Below, piece after piece: positions 6,953 through 30,180 of a stretch of 34,419 nt of DNA. The position numbers and the translations under genes are program-made. Below the pieces are notes generated by a model. That model saw only the letters and a program-made list of their open reading frames with translations. It had not been told where the DNA came from and made no database searches. Origin of the DNA: a virus (taxonomy: Duplodnaviria > Heunggongvirae > Uroviricota > Caudoviricetes); IMG/VR virus record IMGVR_UViG_2671180847_000009; one strand, 5' to 3'. Each line of letters begins with the position of its first letter. Position 1 is the stretch's first letter.

Positions 6953-8707
6953 TTACAAACTCGCTACATTCCGCCAGACGCCATTAATCAGAACCTGCAC
7001 CGGGCGGGCATTGGCCCAGTCCATACTTTCACCACCATCAAGACCGCTGATAAGGTGACCTGATGGTGCGTTCCCGCCACGCCCAATACCAATGGCACTG
7101 CCCAGACGCACATCCTGTACACCGCCTGTTTTGGTCTGATAGCGGGCATCAAAGTTTCCGTAGTCTGACGGTGTTACCCGTCCTGAAACATTCACTGCCC
7201 GGTTACTTTGTAACGCGCCATTCTGAAAACGGAATACGTGCTGACCATTGGCATAAACATCCAGCAGGCCGTCACCATTCTGTTTCAGGCCGGTATCGTT
7301 ATCCCCGAAAGCAATTGAGTTTCCGCCCAGCGCGTTCTGAACGCCGATACCTAATGCACCGTTTACTTTCGAACCGCCGCCAACAGATACCGGGTGAGAC
7401 ATCGAGACTTCACCCGTCCGCAGGTTAATGCTGAATGGTCGCAGGGGGCCAATATCGCCGTTTTCACCCTGATTTTCCTGTGTGGGAATAAGATGCAGGC
7501 ACTCTTCAGAGCGACGAAAAATCAGGCCAAAAGCTTCGTTGAAAATCCTCAGTGCATTAACGCCACGGATTTTCAGCTCCCCGGTCATGGTGTCGCCAGC
7601 GCGTTGAACGGCGCTTTCAGCTTTATCAACGGTGGGTTTCAGTCCGACGTTTTCAATAAACAGCGGTTTATTGGGAATGTCGCTGCCGTTGCGATTTTTC
7701 GCAAGACGTGCGTTGGCGTTATCCATTGCGATTTTTACCGCTTTTGACGTGGCGGCGCGGTCTTCTGCATCGCTGTCGGTGGCGTTGCTGTACTGCGCAA
7801 AGCCTTTTTCGGTCAGCGTGGCATCCGGGTGTCTGCGGGATTTTTCGTGTTCTGCCAGCGCGTTGCTTTGCTCTTCGTCGGGCGTCTGTGGGCGTAAATC
7901 CTGTGGGCCACCTGCTGTCAGTTTTGCAAGTGGCGCGACAAAGTGTTGGAAACCGTTCCCGTCTGTATAGGGCGCGTGTTCCTTGCGAGCGCAGAACGTA
8001 AAAACGGTGCTCCATTCGCCGGTAACAAATCCCTGCCAGCTTGCATCAATCCAGAGGGTATCCCCGACCGCAGCCGGCAGGCTGTAAGGTTCGCGCAGGC
8101 TGACGCGCAGACCTCCCACATACCCGATGCCGGCGGCAACAGTGGCGGTACCATCCTGATAGCTGACCTGAAAACCATCCCCCAGAAAAGCGGCTTCACC
8201 GTAGTGATCAAACGCCAGCAGCCGGCGGGCTTCATCCATTCCCGCAAGACGGGCAGTGAAATCAATCTGCCAGACATCAGCACTGACATCGATATGCATT
8301 GCTGCTGCAGCGCCGTCAAACTCCATGGAAAATGTGCGGATCAGGTTGTTTCCCTGCACGCCGTTCGCTGTTTTAATTTTTTGCTGACGAGGTGTGTGTG
8401 CAATCATGCAGAGCACGCCGCTTTCTTCGTTCAGCAGACCGATCCAGTTGTATTCGAAGTCGCCGACTGTCGTGTCCAGAATGATGGAAAACGCGGTCGC
8501 GTTCGGCGACAGGAGGCCGTACTGGGTGACCGGCGCACGATACTGAATCATGGATTCATCAGGGAGTATCTCATCGCGGGGGATCTCTGCGGATTCATCC
8601 TGTCCCGGAATATATGCAAAAACAAATGTATCCGGGCGCGCAGGTTTTCCACTGATGATTTGATTTGCGCACCAGTGTTCGTACTGTTCAGTAATAATCG
8701 TGCTCAT
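6953..8707 (-). CDS. Tail fibre protein (584 aa, P2 gpH-like)
   Basis: Conserved phage tail-collar N-terminus; Gly-rich C-terminal region typical of fibre tips; followed by a Tfa gene. Confidence 0.65.
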   Translation of the reverse strand: MSTIITEQYEHWCANQIISGKPARPDTFVFAYIPGQDESAEIPRDEILPDESMIQYRAPVTQYGLLSPNATAFSIILDTTVGDFEYNWIGLLNEESGVLCMIAHTPRQQKIKTANGVQGNNLIRTFSMEFDGAAAAMHIDVSADVWQIDFTARLAGMDEARRLLAFDHYGEAAFLGDGFQVSYQDGTATVAAGIGYVGGLRVSLREPYSLPAAVGDTLWIDASWQGFVTGEWSTVFTFCARKEHAPYTDGNGFQHFVAPLAKLTAGGPQDLRPQTPDEEQSNALAEHEKSRRHPDATLTEKGFAQYSNATDSDAEDRAATSKAVKIAMDNANARLAKNRNGSDIPNKPLFIENVGLKPTVDKAESAVQRAGDTMTGELKIRGVNALRIFNEAFGLIFRRSEECLHLIPTQENQGENGDIGPLRPFSINLRTGEVSMSHPVSVGGGSKVNGALGIGVQNALGGNSIAFGDNDTGLKQNGDGLLDVYANGQHVFRFQNGALQSNRAVNVSGRVTPSDYGNFDARYQTKTGGVQDVRLGSAIGIGRGGNAPSGHLISGLDGGESMDWANARPVQVLINGVWRNVASL

Positions 8708-25771: not shown

Positions 25772-25877
25772 GGATTTTTAAATCCCGTTTTCGCCTGTTT
25801 TGTGCGCGCTTCATATATCGCGGCGCGTTTTTTGCTCATTTACGGGATTTGTGAATCCCGTTTTTGTCTGTTTTTTG
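25772..25877. repeat. Two ~33-bp direct repeats, each with an internal GGATTT/AAATCC inverted repeat (candidate parC-like centromere/operator)
   Basis: Copy 1 at 25772-25804 (GGATTTTTAAATCCCGTTTTCGCCTGTTTTGTG), copy 2 at 25844-25877 (GGGATTTGTGAATCCCGTTTTTGTCTGTTTTTTG), about 28/33 identical; copy 1 lies just upstream of parM, copy 2 inside the 3' end of gene A. Confidence 0.4.
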
Positions 25878-28633
25878 TTTCCACTGGTCAGGCCACTCCG
25901 CAGCAGGTCTGCTTTGCGGCGGGCGCGTTCAGTGGTTTCACTGATTCTCTGTTCGTGCTCTGCGTCGCGGATGGCGCGCAGCATGTCAGAAAGCACGGTA
26001 ACGGGTGTTTTCATGGTGTTCTGGTCTTGCTGAAGTGTGGATGCCAGGCGTGCGGCGGCTTCAGGGTCTGATGCCCCTAGTTGTTCCAGATAGCTGGCGA
26101 CCGGGTTATGGCGGATCTCCGTGCTGCTTACGCCGTGGTTACGGCTCAGGCGTTGCCAGAGCTGCGTGATTCGGCTGTCCGGGCGGGGATCCGGTTTGCG
26201 TACAATTTCAAATCCCTGCGGTGCAATGATGCTGCCGTCAACGTACAGGCTGCCGCCCCGTAACAGGTGCTGCATCTGCTGTTCACCGATATGCAGGCCG
26301 AGAGATTCGGCAGACTTCCGCCATTCTTTAGCGAGTAATTCGTGGTTATCAGGCAAAGGCCGCTGCTGTTTGCGGCTCTGTGTCCAGGTCTGCATTTCAT
26401 CACTGCTGTTTTTTGCCTGTTTGTCACGCAGCGAACGCATCAGCGCCCGGCGTTCGTGCCGTTTCAGTGAGCGCATCCATTCATCCACATCAACGCCGTC
26501 AGGAAGCTGCGGCCACGGTGCTGGCCGTTCTTCCGGCTGTTCTGTCCCGTTGTTGTCCGTTTCCTGTACACGGGGACAGTTATTGCCACGAGTCCAAGGG
26601 GCGGCAGGGCCGCCCTGAAGGTCAAAACCATTTTCGTGGGCGTTGTCTTCTGGTTCTGGTTTACGTCTTACCAACTTCCAGTTATCCGGATGCGTGCACA
26701 CACGGGAGGATTCCCCGATGAGTGGTGACCAGATCCCGTAAATCTGTACGCTCTGTTCGCCGTAATCGTTCAGCTCATCTGCGAGGTCGTAGGCGGTGCG
26801 AATCAGGTAGTCCTTGCGTGGAACAAGCACGCCACCCTGTTTTTCAATGTAGGTGGCAAAACACCCGGCATCGGCGGCAGCGAGTACCGCATCCATTGCA
26901 TCATCTTTCAGCCGTTGCGGGCCTTCCGGATTGCGTGCCATCTGGCTGGCAAGGCGGCGCAGTTCACGCCACACCTGACGGGAGGGGATGCCAAAGAACT
27001 GGAACTGACGGACCCGGTGAAGGCGCGCCCAGCCGATGGCGCGCTCCACGCTCTCGGCCATTGATTTTCCGGTTTCGTGGTCAACGCGTGGCTTGCCCGT
27101 TTTCGGGTCGATGCCATCCACGGCGCGGCTGTCCAGGTTCTTTCCGATGTAGGTGGCGATGTAGCTGGTTGGTGTGCCTTTTGAGCCGTCGACATACTCC
27201 GCCTTAAAACGCGGAGTTATGTCATCGCCCAGCTCGTGGCGGTCCTCCTGAATGGCAATATCGCAGACGTGGGACACGATGGTTTCAATCTCGTCCGGAT
27301 GTGCAAAGACCATCATATGCCAGTGCACAGTGCCGTCATGGTGAGGCTCCACCGTGCGGATGCCATACCAGCGCAGGCCGTCGCGGTTCAGTTTTTTGCG
27401 GACCGCCGCAAAAAACGTGTTAACCAGGTAATCGCTGGAGTCGCGCATGGTGGCCCCGTTCCATTTGGGGTTCGGATGACCGTTCTCCGTTGTTGCGTGG
27501 TATTTTGACGGGCAGGTGACGGTCAGAAACACCGCTCTGTCGCCACGGGCTTCGGCCAGAAGTTCCAGTCCCTTCATGGTGGCCATCATTTCTGCCTTAC
27601 GGTGAACCGGGTTACTTACTCCCGCGTAATACACCGTCTCGAGATCAATCGTGAACCCGTCTTCATTTTCCAGCATGAAACTTTTCAGGAAATCGCGTGT
27701 TTTCTCGCGCTGTGCGCGAAACTCGCTTAACGCGTCCTGGCTCAGATAGGGCGATGTTTTTCTGGAAACCAGACAGGCGGCGCGGAGTTGTTCTTCTCTC
27801 CACTCGCAACGTAACAACCACAGTTTGCGTTTCCACCATTCCGCACAGGTCAGGCGAAGGATTGCGCCCGGCAGCAGCTCCGTGTCTGGTTCGTTTCTCC
27901 GGTCTTTGTCTGTTGTCAGTGTGTCATAATGCGGCGGCGTGACGTGCAGGTGTAACGCCATGCGAGCCAGCATCTGATATGCCTTCAGTGCCACCTCCAT
28001 GGTCAGCTCGCCATCGGTCGCGCCAAAGCCATCGCAGAGTGTTTCGAAGGTGCTGCTGAACATCGCCGCCGTCATGGTGGCCAGCGTCTGTATCTGGTGT
28101 TTGTTGAGCTGCGGCAGGTAAAGCAAATCGTCCAGGCGTTCGCGTCCGGCAAGGGAGCGATACCCCTGTGTCAGCCAGCGGCTGTCGGTGCGATCCAGAC
28201 GTTCGAATATTTTGCGCAGGGTTCCGCGTGCATAGCGTTCCGCCTGCCAACTCTTTTTGCCTTTCCGGCGATCGGCTTCCTGTTTTTTGCGCAGGAAGGA
28301 GAGGTGGCGAATAAGCGGATCGCGCAGATAGGATGGCAGCAGGCGCAGCGAGGCCATGGCTTCATCCACCGCACCGCGTGCCTGTTTTCTGGCTTCTCTG
28401 GCCAGTGTGATGGTTTTGTCCTGTTTTTCCTGTGCGTCCAGGCTTTTATTAATCAGGTTGCCCAGCGGTGTGGCGGAGAACGCCGCATCAGCCATTTCCT
28501 GGCGGCGCTCGTTCTCTGCCCGGTAGGCATCCAGCCAGGAGGAAAGTGCGGATTCAGGAGCGGGGATCTCCGTTCCTTCACGCCCCACTGCGTGGCGCGG
28601 TTGTTGCCAGTCCCTGATGTACTCTGTCGTCAT
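25811..28633 (-). CDS. A: Replication initiation endonuclease, P2 gpA-like (rolling-circle Rep), 940 aa
   Basis: HUH motif in TVEPHHDGTVHWHMMVF and catalytic-Tyr region GTPTSYIATYIGK; located where P2 gene A lies relative to cox and Q. Confidence 0.8.
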   Translation of the reverse strand: MTTEYIRDWQQPRHAVGREGTEIPAPESALSSWLDAYRAENERRQEMADAAFSATPLGNLINKSLDAQEKQDKTITLAREARKQARGAVDEAMASLRLLPSYLRDPLIRHLSFLRKKQEADRRKGKKSWQAERYARGTLRKIFERLDRTDSRWLTQGYRSLAGRERLDDLLYLPQLNKHQIQTLATMTAAMFSSTFETLCDGFGATDGELTMEVALKAYQMLARMALHLHVTPPHYDTLTTDKDRRNEPDTELLPGAILRLTCAEWWKRKLWLLRCEWREEQLRAACLVSRKTSPYLSQDALSEFRAQREKTRDFLKSFMLENEDGFTIDLETVYYAGVSNPVHRKAEMMATMKGLELLAEARGDRAVFLTVTCPSKYHATTENGHPNPKWNGATMRDSSDYLVNTFFAAVRKKLNRDGLRWYGIRTVEPHHDGTVHWHMMVFAHPDEIETIVSHVCDIAIQEDRHELGDDITPRFKAEYVDGSKGTPTSYIATYIGKNLDSRAVDGIDPKTGKPRVDHETGKSMAESVERAIGWARLHRVRQFQFFGIPSRQVWRELRRLASQMARNPEGPQRLKDDAMDAVLAAADAGCFATYIEKQGGVLVPRKDYLIRTAYDLADELNDYGEQSVQIYGIWSPLIGESSRVCTHPDNWKLVRRKPEPEDNAHENGFDLQGGPAAPWTRGNNCPRVQETDNNGTEQPEERPAPWPQLPDGVDVDEWMRSLKRHERRALMRSLRDKQAKNSSDEMQTWTQSRKQQRPLPDNHELLAKEWRKSAESLGLHIGEQQMQHLLRGGSLYVDGSIIAPQGFEIVRKPDPRPDSRITQLWQRLSRNHGVSSTEIRHNPVASYLEQLGASDPEAAARLASTLQQDQNTMKTPVTVLSDMLRAIRDAEHEQRISETTERARRKADLLRSGLTSGNKKQTKTGFTNPVNEQKTRRDI

Positions 28634-28639
28634 ACTGAT

Positions 28640-29005
28640 TTACTTCGTCATTCCGTTCAGAGTGTCACGGCAAACGGCAGCCAGCCGCTGAATCTCCAGC
28701 ACAGTGTCTTCTGTGTCGGCATGGTGGTGTGTGATGCGGATGCTGTCGGCAATCACATCGACGATCGCAGAGGATGGGCGCTGGTAAATGCCAATAACGG
28801 ACGGGATGCCGGCTTCAATGCGGTAAAGCCTGTAATTCCCCTCGTGGCTGTCAATCATGTAGCGACCATCAATAACAATTTTTCCGTCAGCGAGCTGCGG
28901 TACAGGCAGGGATTTCAGGTACATGTCATAACGTTCACGCACGCGAACGGCAAGATCACGCTCTGTGTTGAGCAGGTATTCAAGAAAGTCGTTGGCGAGA
29001 ATCAT
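28640..29005 (-). CDS. Hypothetical protein (121 aa) immediately upstream of gene A
   Basis: AAGAGGA RBS; 6-nt gap to A start; no family recognised (occupies roughly the position of P2 B but shows no recognisable similarity). Confidence 0.4.
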   Translation of the reverse strand: MILANDFLEYLLNTERDLAVRVRERYDMYLKSLPVPQLADGKIVIDGRYMIDSHEGNYRLYRIEAGIPSVIGIYQRPSSAIVDVIADSIRITHHHADTEDTVLEIQRLAAVCRDTLNGMTK

Positions 29006-29077
29006 TGCGGCAATCCTCTTGTTACAGATGTGCGAAGGCCTCCCGCCGCAAGGTGCAGGAAAGGCCCGGAACAGGAA

Positions 29078-29308
29078 TTAATGGAGTTTGTTTTGCTGCT
29101 GGATGAGATCCTGAAGAGACAGGAGGTCTTCCGCCAGATAGCTGAATACAGCGGCGCAGTAGTCGGCTGAAATAGTGCTGTTGAGTCTGTGCAATGTGTT
29201 GGATTGCATGATAAAGGCGATGTGTGCAGCGCGGGTGAGTCTGCGGTCGATTTCAGTCTGGATGTGACGACGCTCCGCGATAGCGCGGTGCTGTTTGCGG
29301 TTTGCCAT
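29078..29308 (-). CDS. Hypothetical protein (76 aa)
   Basis: ATG with AAGAGG RBS; preferred over the overlapping 205-aa ORF in another frame. Confidence 0.4.
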   Translation of the reverse strand: MANRKQHRAIAERRHIQTEIDRRLTRAAHIAFIMQSNTLHRLNSTISADYCAAVFSYLAEDLLSLQDLIQQQNKLH

Positions 29309-29628
29309 GATATGTGGCCTCTTGTAGTAAGTTGTGAAAACTCACCATCCAGAGGTTCCAAGCTCGGGGTGGTGAGACGTACAGGGTTGGAACTACCGGC
29401 TACAAGAGATCCCGGCCCGACCGAAATCGGCCCCGTACGCCCCACCATAATTCGTGTGCGAAAAAGACGTGGCAATACAGTTCGCACAAAAAAACCGCTG
29501 GCGCGGTTGTGCGCTCTTGTAGTCTGCGGGGTTCCAATCCCGGCACCCGTTTTATGAGGTGCAGCGGAAATGTAACCTGACTGATTGCGGCATGGCAAGC
29601 GGTTTTTTTGTGTGTGCATAGTGGTTAC
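29309..29628 (-). promoter_or_regulatory. Structured 320-bp intergenic element inside the early operon (terminator/attenuator-like hairpins, possible promoter or small RNA)
   Basis: No credible ORF; minus-strand RNA contains hairpin CCGC-GCCA-GCGG followed by U7 (plus 29488-29506) flanked by mutually exclusive stems CGCACAA/TTGTGCG and GTGCGAA/TTCGCAC; further long-range complementarity CTCTTGTAG/CTACAAGAG (29320-29328/29401-29409). Confidence 0.3.
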
Positions 29629-30180
29629 TCAGTCCGGTAGCAGTTCGCAAAGCACGGTGTCAGCGGCGGTATATCGTGCGTAAAGCCGGGCGGGAACCCA
29701 TCTTTTAAGGGATATCCCGGCTGTGTCCCGGATGTGCTTCCTGATTTCGCTGAATGTCATCCCCTTCTCATCACGCAGTTCAGTTACCAATTCCACCAGG
29801 TGATCGCTGTATCTGGTTCTGTGGTGGAGTTCCCCGTATTTCCTGAACCGATACCCTCTTTTTCTCAGGTTTAGTTCCACCGTGGATGGCGAGCGCCCCA
29901 ACTCATTCGCGAGTTCCCGGATAGTTTTTGTGTGGCGATTCCTGATGAGCATGCTGAGTTCTTTTGTGCTCAGGTGGGGGCGTTTGGCGTGAATAACCCC
30001 CTGAGAGAGCAAAAGGCGGATGCGACTTCGTATTGCTGACTCGGTTCTCTGAAGGTACTTTGTCAGCTCCGGCGCTGTGTGGGAGTGGTATAAAGTGGCT
30101 AAAAGTTCATCCTCCTGCTGTGTCCATGGTTTTACATGTGCCGGAGCCACACCAGGTGTACCCATTGGTTTGAGTTTCAT
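29629..30180 (-). CDS. Putative DNA-binding protein with tandem HTH-like repeats (183 aa)
   Basis: Three repeats resembling Myb/sigma-70 region-4 type HTH (W-x-x-x-E-D-E-L-L, L-x-x-x-I-R-E-L-A-x-E-L-G-R-S, G-M-T-F-S-E-I-R-K-H-I); AAGGGAG RBS. Confidence 0.4.
   Translation of the reverse strand: MKLKPMGTPGVAPAHVKPWTQQEDELLATLYHSHTAPELTKYLQRTESAIRSRIRLLLSQGVIHAKRPHLSTKELSMLIRNRHTKTIRELANELGRSPSTVELNLRKRGYRFRKYGELHHRTRYSDHLVELVTELRDEKGMTFSEIRKHIRDTAGISLKRWVPARLYARYTAADTVLCELLPD

What the first reader, a model, noticed from the sequence alone, without database searches (positions are those of the whole stretch)
29309..29628. Structured 320-bp non-coding element splitting the early operon
Canonical P2 has no large intergenic gap between cox and A. 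Here a 320-bp ORF-free region separates the multi-HTH gene from the 76-aa/121-aa/A/parMR block. On the transcribed strand it has an intrinsic-terminator-like hairpin (CCGC-GCCA-GCGG plus U7) nested in two mutually exclusive alternative stems, plus longer-range complementary pairs. This looks like a regulated terminator/attenuator or a small RNA gene, possibly the control point or internal promoter for replication and cargo expression.
Basis: seen in the sequence. Interest (0 to 1): 0.55.

Follow-up and report, generated by a model that had tools for sequence, protein, structure and literature searches.

The report
IsrK–C4 antisense RNA immunity module
The 320-bp "gap" holds two known phage regulatory RNA genes, an IsrK-type small RNA and a C4/CI-type antisense RNA, placed to gate translation of the downstream anti-repressor-like and replication genes as in phages P1, P4 and N15; it is real but of a known kind.

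Summary
The gap is real and structured, but it is not a new element. Rfam finds two full-length hits on the transcribed (-) strand. One is isrK (29562..29488, 71 bits), with its own promoter and the CCGC-GCCA-GCGG-U7 terminator. The other is C4 antisense RNA (29452..29365, 79 bits).

The two C4 loops are complementary to sites inside IsrK. They are also complementary to sites in the leader, one of which covers the Shine-Dalgarno of the 76-aa gene. Across 60 unique relatives there are 14 x 5 loop types, and both target sets co-vary with them (0 of 2000 permutations reach the observed fit).

The same tandem is found in P4 (seqA/CI), N15 (cA), P1-like, Stx and ST64B phages, and it matches Gifsy-1 isrK-orf45. 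It is absent from P2 and 186. The 76-aa protein is a homolog of P4 epsilon, the helper derepression protein.

The gap is not ORF-free. It lies inside a 205-codon frame that is open in 59 of 63 relatives. That frame starts next to the upstream gene's stop and ends in ATGA on the next gene, like P4 eta.

Verdict: a P4/P1-type RNA immunity cassette in a P88-like P2-family prophage, i.e. a new member of a known kind. The mechanism is inferred by homology and has not been tested in this phage.

The parts
29002..29619 (-). 205-codon 'eta-like' open frame. It spans the promoter, IsrK, C4 and the leader, and overlaps the 76-aa gene out of frame. Its ATG lies 9 nt after the stop of the 183-aa gene. Its TGA overlaps the ATG of the 121-aa gene (ATGA, 29005-29002).
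   Evidence: Listed. Open in 59 of 63 unique relatives; 55 of these end in ATGA. Only 0.7% of synonymous versions of orf76 keep this frame open. The amino-acid sequence is not conserved. It hits Pfam Phage_ASH at 31.4 bits. It is the same frame as P4 eta and the N15 cA ORF.
29569..29598 (-). Predicted sigma-70 promoter of IsrK: -35 TTGCCA at 29598-29593, 18-nt spacer, -10 TACATT at 29574-29569. An A7 tract at 29609-29603 sits in the UP-element position.
   Evidence: Scan. The promoter is invariant in 60 unique relatives. A promoter-like pair of hexamers sits at the same place in P4, N15, F004, ST64B, RCS47 and Kp020009. The Rfam isrK model starts 7 nt after the -10.
29488..29562 (-). IsrK-type sRNA, the counterpart of P4 seqA and the P1 a1/b1 region. 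It has two hairpins, a linker and an intrinsic terminator (29508..29486). It carries b1 (29537..29531, in the loop of hairpin 2) and a1 (29522..29514, in the single-stranded linker).
   Evidence: Rfam isrK 71.3 bits against GA 50, full length. Sub-threshold c4-a1b1 hit, 20 bits. Terminator found. Hairpins 85% paired with 4 compensatory pairs. Sites located.
29365..29452 (-). C4/CI-type antisense RNA: a 17-bp closing stem and two hairpins. Recognition loop a' is at 29408..29400 and junction b' at 29393..29387.
   Evidence: Rfam C4 79.2 bits against GA 45, full length. 99.8% of cells paired, and 13 of 27 pairs show changes on both sides. The single-sequence MFE of -43.8 kcal/mol reproduces the Rfam fold.
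29355..29361 (-). b2 target (UUGGAAC), 4 nt after the C4 3' end.
   Evidence: Located. Co-varies with b' across 5 types. Duplex energy -8.9 kcal/mol.
29319..29327 (-). a2 target (CUACAAGAG). It overlaps the Shine-Dalgarno AAGAGG (29323-29318) of the 76-aa gene.
   Evidence: Located. Co-varies with a' across 14 types. Duplex energy -13.2 kcal/mol. The position is the same in P4, N15, F004, ST64B and RCS47.
29341..29376 (-). Alternative hairpin. The C4 3' strand CUCACCA (29376..29370) pairs with the leader segment UGGUGAG (29347..29341), which presents b2 in the loop. This is mutually exclusive with the C4 closing stem.
   Evidence: A 7-10 bp helix is present and co-varies in all 12 modules examined, from P4 to P1-like.
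29078..29308 (-). 76-aa gene, a homolog of P4 epsilon (helper derepression protein). It is the first gene whose ribosome-binding site lies after C4.
   Evidence: BLASTP against P4 epsilon: 29% identity, E = 2e-8. hhalign probability 92.9%, E = 3.6e-7. Pfam Derepression 22.1 bits, below GA 27. Excess of third-codon-position variation.
28640..29005 (-). 121-aa gene of unknown function. Its ATG overlaps the stop of the long frame.
   Evidence: PHROG 3237, unknown function.
25811..28633 (-). 940-aa replication endonuclease (P2 A-type). It is the downstream gene whose expression has to pass through the module.
   Evidence: Annotated as replication endonuclease in Shae_phiSM, P88 and E. coli.

Best explanation
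The gap is a P4/P1-type antisense-RNA immunity cassette sitting in the early operon of a P88-like (Xuanwuvirus, P2-family) prophage.

Shown by the sequence and by comparison:
- An internal promoter is followed by an IsrK-type sRNA gene with its terminator.
- Next comes a C4/CI-type structured RNA.
- The two recognition elements of C4 (a', b') are complementary to one pair of sites in IsrK (a1, b1) and to a second pair in the leader (b2, a2).
- a2 covers the ribosome-binding site of a P4-epsilon-like 76-aa gene.

Inferred by homology with P1 c4, P4 CI, N15 CA and Gifsy-1 IsrK:
- Most transcripts from the internal promoter stop at the IsrK terminator and give the short sRNA.
- Read-through transcripts are processed to C4 RNA.
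- C4 pairs with b2/a2, blocks translation of the 76-aa gene, and by polarity keeps the 121-aa and A replication genes off in the lysogen.
- IsrK carries the same target sequences. It therefore competes for C4 and relieves the block.

Also inferred, by analogy with P4 eta:
- Transcripts from the repressor-controlled early promoter carry the start codon of the 205-codon frame.
- Ribosomes reading through IsrK, its terminator and C4 would let these transcripts escape termination and the RNA block. They would then re-initiate at the 121-aa gene through the ATGA overlap.
- The epsilon-like product probably inactivates the phage's own P2-type C repressor.
For: - Identity: two full-length Rfam hits above the gathering score, and they are the only hits in the 34-kb window.
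- C4 fold: 99.8% paired, 13 compensatory pairs, 0 of 500 shuffles reach it, slid controls about 40% paired.
- IsrK hairpins are supported.
- Promoter and terminator are predicted at the ends of the IsrK hit and are invariant in relatives.
- Loop-target pairing: 9 nt plus 7 nt of perfect Watson-Crick complementarity to both site pairs in the window.
- Among 60 unique relatives there are 14 a' types and 5 b' types in 17 combinations. Cognate complementarity has medians of 9 and 7 nt, against 4-5 nt for non-cognate pairs. 0 of 2000 permutations reach the observed total.
- The same architecture, with a2 on the SD about 35-45 nt after C4, is found in P4, N15, Stx phage F004, ST64B and P1-like RCS47. 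In Kp020009 the a2-type match lies at the same offset, but no SD was identified there.
- One GenBank record annotates isrK and C4 side by side.
- Experimental precedent in Gifsy-1 (PMC4825925): the isrK promoter drives the downstream operon, the read-through mRNA is translationally silent, IsrK supplied in trans activates it, a processed RNA of about 80 nt (STnc1160) comes from the 'orf45' region, and prophage induction requires PisrK.
- P4 precedent for CI/seqA and for eta translation: PMC10111431.
- orf76 is homologous to P4 epsilon.
- The window's C repressor is 44% identical to P2 C.
- The long frame is conserved with ATG and ATGA boundaries.
Against: - There are no expression, processing or genetic data for this phage or any P88-like phage. 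Every functional step is by analogy.
- The simple 'IsrK titrates C4' model is not proven even in Gifsy-1. There, constitutive STnc1160 did not counteract IsrK but enhanced its effect (PMC4825925 discussion).
- The Pfam Derepression score of orf76 (22.1) is below the gathering score (27).
- Unlike P4, where kil is in frame with eta, orf76 is in a different frame from the long ORF. Translation of the long frame would therefore pass over orf76, not produce it.
- The long frame's amino-acid sequence is not conserved, and 3 of 63 relatives have it truncated.
- P1-like RCS47 and Kp020009 have stops in that frame. Translation of the region is therefore not a universal feature of the family.
- A few natural variants have non-matching loops and targets (L015, L027, L036 type, L052).
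Confidence: 0.8

Rival explanations
1. The cassette works purely as a P4-style replication immunity. C4 stops expression of the A replication gene from the constitutive internal promoter. The 76-aa protein is not an anti-repressor of the phage's own C repressor, and IsrK has no inducing role.
For: - The gene order IsrK-C4-(small gene)-(small gene)-replication gene parallels P4 seqA-cI-seqC-epsilon-orf151-alpha.
- In P4 the system keeps the replication operon off in the lysogen (PMC4825925 discussion; PMC10111431).
- No test of epsilon-like/C binding exists for this phage.
Against: - The first gene gated by a2 is an epsilon homolog, and the resident repressor is P2-C-like. P2 C is the known target class of P4 epsilon (PMC8628076).
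- In P1, N15, lambdoid phages and Gifsy-1 the cargo behind C4 is an anti-repressor (PMC4825925).
Confidence: 0.3
2. This is the first reader's version: a cis-acting regulated terminator or attenuator. Mutually exclusive stems around the CCGC-GCCA-GCGG-U7 hairpin decide read-through, without trans-acting RNAs.
For: - The MFE of the 351-nt region pairs CACAAAAAAACCGC (about 29614-29601) with GCGGUUUUUUUGUG (about 29496-29483), enclosing IsrK. The duplex energy is -27.2 kcal/mol.
- The terminator is real.
Against: - The A7CCGC segment is invariant in 60 relatives, so it offers no covariation.
- It is absent from P4, N15, P1-like and lambdoid homologs, which have the same terminator position.
- It pairs with the 3' half and U-tract of the terminator, which are still inside the polymerase when the termination decision is made (inference).
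- It sits where a promoter UP element would be (own knowledge).
- This model leaves the three-way loop/target covariation unexplained.
Confidence: 0.07
3. The region is simply a protein-coding gene (an 'Ash family' or eta-like protein), and the RNA hits are incidental.
For: - The 205-codon frame is conserved, with ATG and ATGA boundaries.
- It hits Pfam Phage_ASH at 31.4 bits against GA 26 and PHROG 'transcriptional regulator' families at E down to 8e-20.
- PGAP annotates it as 'ash family protein'.
Against: - Substitutions in the stems are compensatory at the RNA level.
- Loop and target sites change together at three separate places, which would be unconnected amino-acid changes in a protein.
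- In the part overlapping orf76, the long frame shows 3 synonymous against 31 non-synonymous codon differences.
- BLASTP between this frame and P4 eta finds nothing (E = 1), although the RNAs are homologous.
- Pfam Phage_ASH also matches the obsolete P4 'cI protein' and N15 'cA protein' ORFs. Per the literature their products are RNAs (P4 CI: PMC10111431; N15 CA: own knowledge).
Confidence: 0.03

Closest known systems
Satellite phage P4 immunity region (PLE - seqA - cI/CI RNA - seqC, nested in eta/kil, followed by epsilon, orf151 and alpha)
   Same: - Same two Rfam families in the same order and spacing: isrK hit at 8692..8615 and C4 hit at 8507..8420 of NC_001609.
- b2 lies 4 nt after C4 and a2 lies on the SD.
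- The internal promoter sits inside a long ORF that reads C4 in the same frame, AUG-GUN.
- An epsilon homolog and then a replication gene lie downstream.
- The covarying alternative helix between the C4 3' strand and the leader is present.
   Different: - The host element is a full-size P2-family phage, not a satellite.
- The replication gene is a P2 A-type endonuclease, not the alpha primase.
- The first gene after a2 is the epsilon-like gene itself, in a different frame from the long ORF. In P4 it is kil, in frame with eta, and epsilon follows.
- The long frame is coupled (ATGA) to the 121-aa gene.
- The recognition loops differ: GAUCUCUUGUAG / AGUUCCAA here against UAUCCUGUGAAG / AUUCUCAC in P4.
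Gifsy-1 isrK-orf45(STnc1160)-anrP locus of Salmonella (Hershko-Shalev et al. 2016, PMC4825925)
   Same: - The layout matches the published description: an IsrK sRNA with its own promoter and a leaky terminator, then an 'orf45' region whose nucleotide sequence is conserved while its amino-acid sequence is not, which yields a processed RNA of about 80 nt and is complementary to IsrK.
- In both, the frame through that region ends in AUGA on the next gene.
- The cargo is an anti-repressor-type gene.
- The Gifsy-1 sequence itself was not fetched or scanned here.
   Different: - The context is lambdoid, with a Q-like antiterminator upstream.
- The cargo is AnrP, not an epsilon-like protein plus replication genes.
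- In the window the frame extends upstream beyond the promoter to the previous gene's stop (205 codons against 45).
P1/P7 immI operon (c4 - icd - ant) and N15 cA
   Same: - C4 RNA with a'/b' loops, a1/b1 sites upstream (which score as isrK) and a2/b2 sites downstream on the RBS.
- Specificity is set by a few loop bases (P1 versus P7: own knowledge, Citron and Schuster 1990, cited in PMC2864571).
   Different: - The downstream genes icd and ant are unrelated to orf76 (no BLASTP hit at E <= 100).
- In P1-like RCS47 the frame over C4 is closed after 39 codons.

Membership tests
Rfam RF01695 C4 antisense RNA | Covariance-model score at or above the curated gathering score, over the full model | tested here: met
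   79.2 bits against GA 45, model positions 1-87 of 87, at 29452..29365 on the - strand.
Rfam RF01695 C4 antisense RNA | Long closing stem enclosing two hairpins, supported by covariation | tested here: met
   27 pairs, 99.8% of cells paired, 13 pairs with changes on both sides, 0 of 500 shuffles as good, slid controls 32-46% paired.
Rfam RF01695 C4 antisense RNA | Loops a' and b' complementary to a2/b2 downstream, with one site covering the ribosome-binding site of the first gene | tested here: met
   9-nt a2 at 29327..29319 over the SD AAGAGG, and 7-nt b2 at 29361..29355. Both co-vary across 14 and 5 types.
Rfam RF01695 C4 antisense RNA | Excised from a longer transcript (RNase P) and acting in trans as a repressor | not testable with these tools
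   Only indirect: CC is invariant directly after the closing stem (columns 84-85). No expression data.
Rfam RF01394 isrK (also RF03163 c4-a1b1, P4 seqA) | Covariance-model score at or above the gathering score | tested here: met
   isrK 71.3 bits against GA 50, full length, at 29562..29488. c4-a1b1 scores only 20 bits against GA 46.7, so that model is not met.
Rfam RF01394 isrK (also RF03163 c4-a1b1, P4 seqA) | Independent transcription unit: own promoter and Rho-independent terminator | tested here: inconclusive
   Consensus promoter at 29598..29569 and terminator at 29508..29486 are predicted. Both are conserved. Transcript ends have not been measured.
Rfam RF01394 isrK (also RF03163 c4-a1b1, P4 seqA) | Carries sequences complementary to the RNA encoded just downstream | tested here: met
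   b1 at 29537..29531 and a1 at 29522..29514. They co-vary with the C4 loops.
Rfam RF01394 isrK (also RF03163 c4-a1b1, P4 seqA) | Hfq binding | not testable with these tools
   No data.
P4-type immunity region (eta/kil nested genes with seqA-cI-seqC) | A long ORF starts upstream of the internal promoter and reads through seqA, cI and seqC | tested here: met
   205-codon frame 29619..29002, open in 59 of 63 unique relatives. It uses the same codon phase on C4 as P4 eta.
P4-type immunity region (eta/kil nested genes with seqA-cI-seqC) | The first gene translated after seqC (kil) is the in-frame C-terminal part of the long ORF | tested here: not met
   The orf76 start is offset by 311 nt (frame 2) from the long ORF start.
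P4-type immunity region (eta/kil nested genes with seqA-cI-seqC) | An epsilon derepression gene and a replication gene lie downstream in the same operon | tested here: met
   orf76 against P4 epsilon: E = 2e-8, hhalign probability 92.9%. A-type replication endonuclease at 28633..25811. The replication protein is of a different family from P4 alpha.
P4-type immunity region (eta/kil nested genes with seqA-cI-seqC) | Immunity acts by Rho-dependent premature termination, which is suppressed by translation | not testable with these tools
   Needs transcript mapping and nonsense mutants.
P1 immI operon | icd and ant genes lie behind c4 | tested here: not met
   orf76 has no BLASTP similarity to the icd-like protein of P1-like RCS47. 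No Ant, Rha or Bro domain was found in orf76 or orf121.
Pfam PF10554 Phage_ASH | Score at or above the gathering score | tested here: met
   31.4 bits against GA 26 for the 205-aa frame. The family also matches the P4 'cI' ORF and the N15 'cA' ORF, both of which overlie the C4 RNA hits in those genomes. The domain is therefore the translation of the isrK/C4 RNA region.

The most novel reading that the evidence does not exclude
In P88-like P2-family phages the P4-type RNA cassette may be a self-induction switch. IsrK would titrate C4 and so unlock an epsilon-like anti-repressor that acts on the phage's own P2-type C repressor.

The anti-repressor gene is nested out of frame inside an 'eta-like' ORF. 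That ORF's only selected property appears to be that it is translated, which would carry early-promoter transcripts through the IsrK terminator.

The 14 x 5 loop/target specificities would form a combinatorial immunity code. This code would decide which co-resident P2-like helpers, P4-like satellites and lambdoid prophages can cross-regulate each other.
Probability: 0.3. Interest if true: 0.6.

Novelty: new member of a known kind. Interest (0 to 1): 0.3.

Why it matters
- The gap is a common locus. It is present at roughly 80% identity or more in 1246 of 5426 complete E. coli genomes. It is currently left blank, called 'hypothetical protein', or called an 'ash family protein' pseudogene.
- It places a P4-style RNA immunity/anti-immunity cassette, including an epsilon homolog, inside helper-type P2-family phages. 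This bears on where the satellite's derepression toolkit came from. It also offers a candidate induction route for P88-like prophages.
- It shows that the Pfam 'Ash' domain, described in the literature as having no known function (bioRxiv 10.1101/2021.11.24.469858), corresponds to the translated isrK/C4 RNA region.
- None of this is a new mechanism.

Tried and rejected
- tRNA/tmRNA scan of the window found none, despite a T-arm-like GGTTCCAATCC string.
- The A7CCGC/GCGGU7 'anti-terminator' is invariant in P88-like relatives and absent in all distant homologs. It was set aside as a probable UP element.
- A second promoter-like site at 29475..29447 has its -10 overlapping the C4 5' end, so a transcript from it would lack the C4 5' strand. 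In Gifsy-1, removing PisrK abolishes downstream transcription (PMC4825925). It is not counted as part of the module.
- A protein-only reading of the 205-aa frame was rejected on the substitution pattern.
- BLASTP of the long frame against P4 eta found no similarity.
- orf121 against P4 orf151 found no significant similarity.
- NCBIfam gave nothing for orf76, orf121 or the long frame.
- The genome-contig scan with orf76 returned only one locus, from E. albertii.
- The exact C4 loop type of the window was found only in 5 P88-like viral contigs. No sharing across phage families was seen for this type.
- Forti 1999 and Sabbattini 1995 could not be read. Their content is cited through PMC10111431 and from my own knowledge.
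- No paper was found that describes these RNAs in P88, phiSM or Xuanwuvirus.
Full report
OBSERVATION.

All genes around the finding are on the - strand. The 183-aa multi-HTH gene runs 30180..29629. The gap is 29628..29309. It is followed by a 76-aa gene (29308..29078), a 121-aa gene (29005..28640) and a 940-aa A-type replication endonuclease (28633..25811).

AACCGC-GCCA-GCGGTT followed by T7 lies at 29508..29486. The 351-nt region folds better than dinucleotide shuffles, but equally so on both strands (z = -3.30 and -3.33). The fold energy alone therefore says little.

The region is not ORF-free. A 205-codon frame on the transcribed strand (29619..29002) covers all of it.

IDENTITY.

An Rfam scan of the whole 34-kb window gives exactly two hits above the gathering score. 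Both are inside the finding, both are on the transcribed strand, and both are full length:
- isrK, RF01394, at 29562..29488: 71.3 bits against GA 50.
- C4 antisense RNA, RF01695, at 29452..29365: 79.2 bits against GA 45.

A permissive scan adds only a sub-threshold c4-a1b1 match (20 bits) over the 5' part of IsrK.

A sigma-70-like promoter (TTGCCA, 18-nt spacer, TACATT; 29598..29569) ends 7 nt before the IsrK model start.

ANATOMY OF THE PAIRING SITES.

- The 12-nt loop of the second C4 hairpin contains CUCUUGUAG (a', 29408..29400).
- The single-stranded junction that follows contains GUUCCAA (b', 29393..29387).
- Their exact complements occur twice. One pair is inside IsrK: b1 UUGGAAC at 29537..29531, in the loop of hairpin 2, and a1 CUACAAGAG at 29522..29514, in the linker.
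- The second pair is in the leader: b2 at 29361..29355, 4 nt after C4, and a2 at 29327..29319.
- a2 overlaps the Shine-Dalgarno AAGAGG (29323..29318) of the 76-aa gene, whose ATG is at 29308.
- Duplex energies are -13.2 kcal/mol (a':a2), -12.1 (a':a1), -8.9 (b':b2) and -10.4 (b':b1).

COMPARATIVE EVIDENCE.

The window is a P88-like prophage (Peduoviridae, Xuanwuvirus). The locus is 95% identical to Citrobacter phage Shae_phiSM and about 90% identical to P88. Sequences at roughly 80% identity or more occur in 1246 of 5426 complete E. coli genomes.

Eighty viral contigs that encode the 76-aa protein gave 60 unique upstream sequences. Among them:
- There are 14 different a' loops and 5 different b' junctions, in 17 combinations.
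- In nearly every sequence both a1 and a2 match a', and both b1 and b2 match b'. Cognate medians are 9 and 7 nt, against 4-5 nt for non-cognate combinations.
- None of 2000 permutations of the loop/target assignment reaches the observed total (1914 against 1204 +/- 34).
- The a and b types reassort, so these are many independent co-changes at three places 100-200 nt apart.
- The permutation breaks relatedness between sequences. The number of independent types is the stronger argument.

The RNA folds are also supported:
- C4: 99.8% of cells paired across 21 diverse sequences, including P4, N15, P1-like and lambdoid. Thirteen of 27 pairs show changes on both sides. No shuffle is as good, and slid controls reach about 40%.
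- IsrK: the two 5' hairpins are supported more modestly, at 85% paired with 4 compensatory pairs.

THE SAME CASSETTE ELSEWHERE.

Rfam finds the isrK-C4 tandem in the following:
- P4: 8692..8615 and 8507..8420. This is its seqA/CI immunity region.
- N15: the 'cA secondary immunity repressor'.
- P1-like RCS47, upstream of ant.
- Stx2 phage F004, whose GenBank record already annotates both RNAs.
- ST64B and Klebsiella phage 020009.

In every case b2 lies 3-7 nt after C4. In all but Kp020009, a2 lies about 35-45 nt after C4 on the SD of the next ORF; in Kp020009 the a2-type match lies at the same offset, but no SD was identified there.

About 170 phage records carry a 70-76% identical copy, mostly in front of Rha or anti-repressor genes. 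The early regions of P2 and 186 have no hit (E <= 1).

Published work covers the parts:
- The C4 and c4-a1b1 motifs are in PMC2864571.
- PMC10111431 states that the Rfam C4 and isrK profiles detect P4 CI and seqA relatives.
- PMC4825925 shows experimentally, in Gifsy-1, that the isrK promoter drives the downstream operon. The read-through mRNA is translationally silent and short IsrK supplied in trans activates it. An RNA of about 80 nt (STnc1160) is processed from the 'orf45' region, and prophage induction depends on PisrK.

THE CARGO.

The 76-aa protein is a homolog of P4 epsilon, the helper derepression protein:
- BLASTP: 29% identity over 66 aa, E = 2e-8.
- Profile comparison: 92.9% probability.
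- Pfam Derepression: 22.1 bits, which is below GA 27. P4 epsilon itself scores 170 bits.

The window's repressor, next to the integrase, is 44% identical to P2 C. P2 C is the known target class of P4 epsilon (PMC8628076).

Variation in orf76 is concentrated at third codon positions (42 against 24 and 23). It is therefore a real protein gene.

THE LONG FRAME.

- The 205-codon frame is open in 59 of 63 unique relatives. In 55 of them its TGA overlaps the ATG of the next gene (ATGA), even where that next gene differs.
- Its ATG is conserved 9-12 nt before the A-tract. It always lies close to the stop of the upstream gene, although at least six different upstream genes abut the module.
- Indels occur in frame-preserving sets, as read from the alignment: +1 and +2 in L004, +1 and -1 in L050, and +1 and +2 in L068.
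- Only 0.7% of synonymous re-codings of orf76 (7% for a diverged allele) keep this overlapping frame free of stops.
- The encoded amino acids are not conserved. There are 3 synonymous against 31 non-synonymous codon differences in the overlap, and BLASTP against P4 eta finds nothing.
- The frame reads C4 in the same phase (AUG-GUN at the C4 5' end) as P4 eta, the N15 'cA' ORF and the F004/ST64B Rha ORFs. It is closed in P1-like RCS47 and in Kp020009.

This matches the P4 precedent as described in PMC10111431 (citing Forti 1999). There, eta begins upstream of the internal promoter and contains seqA, cI and seqC. Its translation from the upstream promoter prevents termination.

My inference for the window is as follows. 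Being translated is what is selected here. Transcripts from the C-repressed early promoter carry the start codon. Ribosomes can run through the IsrK terminator and C4, and then re-initiate at the 121-aa gene. Transcripts from the internal promoter lack the start codon. They terminate, or they yield C4.

MECHANISM, WITH STATUS OF EACH STEP.

Shown:
- The two RNA genes, their folds, the promoter and terminator motifs, the three-way complementarity and its covariation.
- a2 lying on the SD.
- The epsilon homology.
- The conserved coupled frame.

Inferred from homologs:
- Processing of C4 (in P1 and P4 this is by RNase P; own knowledge).
- Translational block of orf76 and polarity on orf121 and A.
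- IsrK acting as a competing target that relieves the block.
- Epsilon-like inactivation of the resident C repressor.

The simple titration picture is not settled even in Gifsy-1, where constitutive STnc1160 enhanced the IsrK effect instead of opposing it.

OTHER STRUCTURES.

This pairing is invariant in P88-like phages and missing in all distant homologs. The A-tract sits where a promoter UP element would be (own knowledge). I do not count it as a switch.

A different alternative helix does co-vary from P4 to P1-like phages. The 3' strand of the C4 closing stem (CUCACCA, 29376..29370) can pair with a leader segment (UGGUGAG, 29347..29341), which puts b2 in a hairpin loop. This fits the two alternative conformers reported for Gifsy-1.

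VERDICT.

The feature is real, functional-looking and under strong selection, but it belongs to a known kind. It is a new member, in a new host-phage context, of the C4/CI-IsrK/seqA antisense immunity family.

It differs from P4 in three ways:
- The epsilon-like gene takes the place of kil, in another frame.
- The long frame is coupled to a different downstream gene.
- The replication gene is A-type.

I found no paper that describes the element in P88, phiSM or Xuanwuvirus.

Noticed in passing
window 29619..29002 (-); L085 8168-8584; L086 413-715; L002 3082-3336: Pfam PF10554 'Phage_ASH' and the PGAP name 'ash family protein' correspond to the translated isrK/C4 RNA region. The family matches the window's 205-aa frame (31 bits), the obsolete P4 'cI protein' ORF (60 bits), the N15 'cA' ORF (37 bits) and the PGAP pseudogene. 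One paper used PF10554 as the marker for P4 epsilon (PMC8628076), but P4 epsilon itself hits PF25738 (170 bits). Another paper states that the Ash domain has no known function.
   Followed up: partly
loci L004-L084, about 90-330 nt upstream of the 76-aa gene: The recognition elements are highly diversified: 14 a' loop types by 5 b' types in 17 combinations, with matching a1/a2 and b1/b2. The a and b types reassort like modules. Some b' types are shared with other phage families: GUUGAGAA with N15 and AGUUCCAA with Klebsiella phage 020009.
   Followed up: partly
L015, L027, L036/L037/L047, L052 (same region): A few natural variants have a C4 loop that does not match its own targets. In L015, a' is of the CAACUACAG type while a1/a2 are of the CAACCAAAG type. 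In L027, b1 in IsrK does not match. The others show 1-2 mismatches or G-U pairs. These are possible recombinants with altered or lost self-control.
   Followed up: no
window 29613..29600 and 29496..29483 (-): A 13-nt inverted repeat flanks the IsrK gene (ACAAAAAAACCGC ... GCGGUUUUUUUGU). It is specific to the P88-like group, invariant there, and absent from P4, N15, P1-like and lambdoid homologs. The A7 tract is also codons 4-6 of the long frame and sits in the UP-element position of the IsrK promoter.
   Followed up: partly
window 29475..29447 (-): A second sigma-70-like site (TTGCCA, 17-nt spacer, AATTAT) lies between IsrK and C4. It is largely conserved in relatives. Its -10 overlaps the first bases of the C4 model, so a transcript from it would lack the C4 5' strand.
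   Followed up: no
window 29376..29341 (-); same place in P4, N15, F004, ST64B, RCS47, Kp020009: A covarying 7-10 bp alternative helix forms between the 3' strand of the C4 closing stem and a leader segment 15-18 nt after C4. It presents b2 in a hairpin loop and is mutually exclusive with the mature C4 fold.
   Followed up: partly
loci L004-L084, left and right edges of the module: The module is a recombination cassette. At least six unrelated upstream gene ends abut its conserved ATG. On the right there are two different genes after the ATGA, and in four loci the long frame runs on to 326-328 codons.
   Followed up: no
window 29078..29308 (-) within 29002..29619 (-): The epsilon-like gene lies entirely inside the long frame in a +1 register. 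Both frames stay open in alleles that differ by 56 of 231 nt, but only the 76-aa frame shows protein-level constraint.
   Followed up: yes
downstream ORF starts in L085, L087, L088, L089: The first ORFs after a2 in P4 (kil), F004 and ST64B (Rha-type) and P1-like RCS47 (icd) share an N-terminus MAT(x)P(x)3-4PE and the surrounding nucleotides GCTGCCAT(C/T)ATGGCTAC, although the proteins are otherwise unrelated. The window has MANRKQ instead.
   Followed up: no
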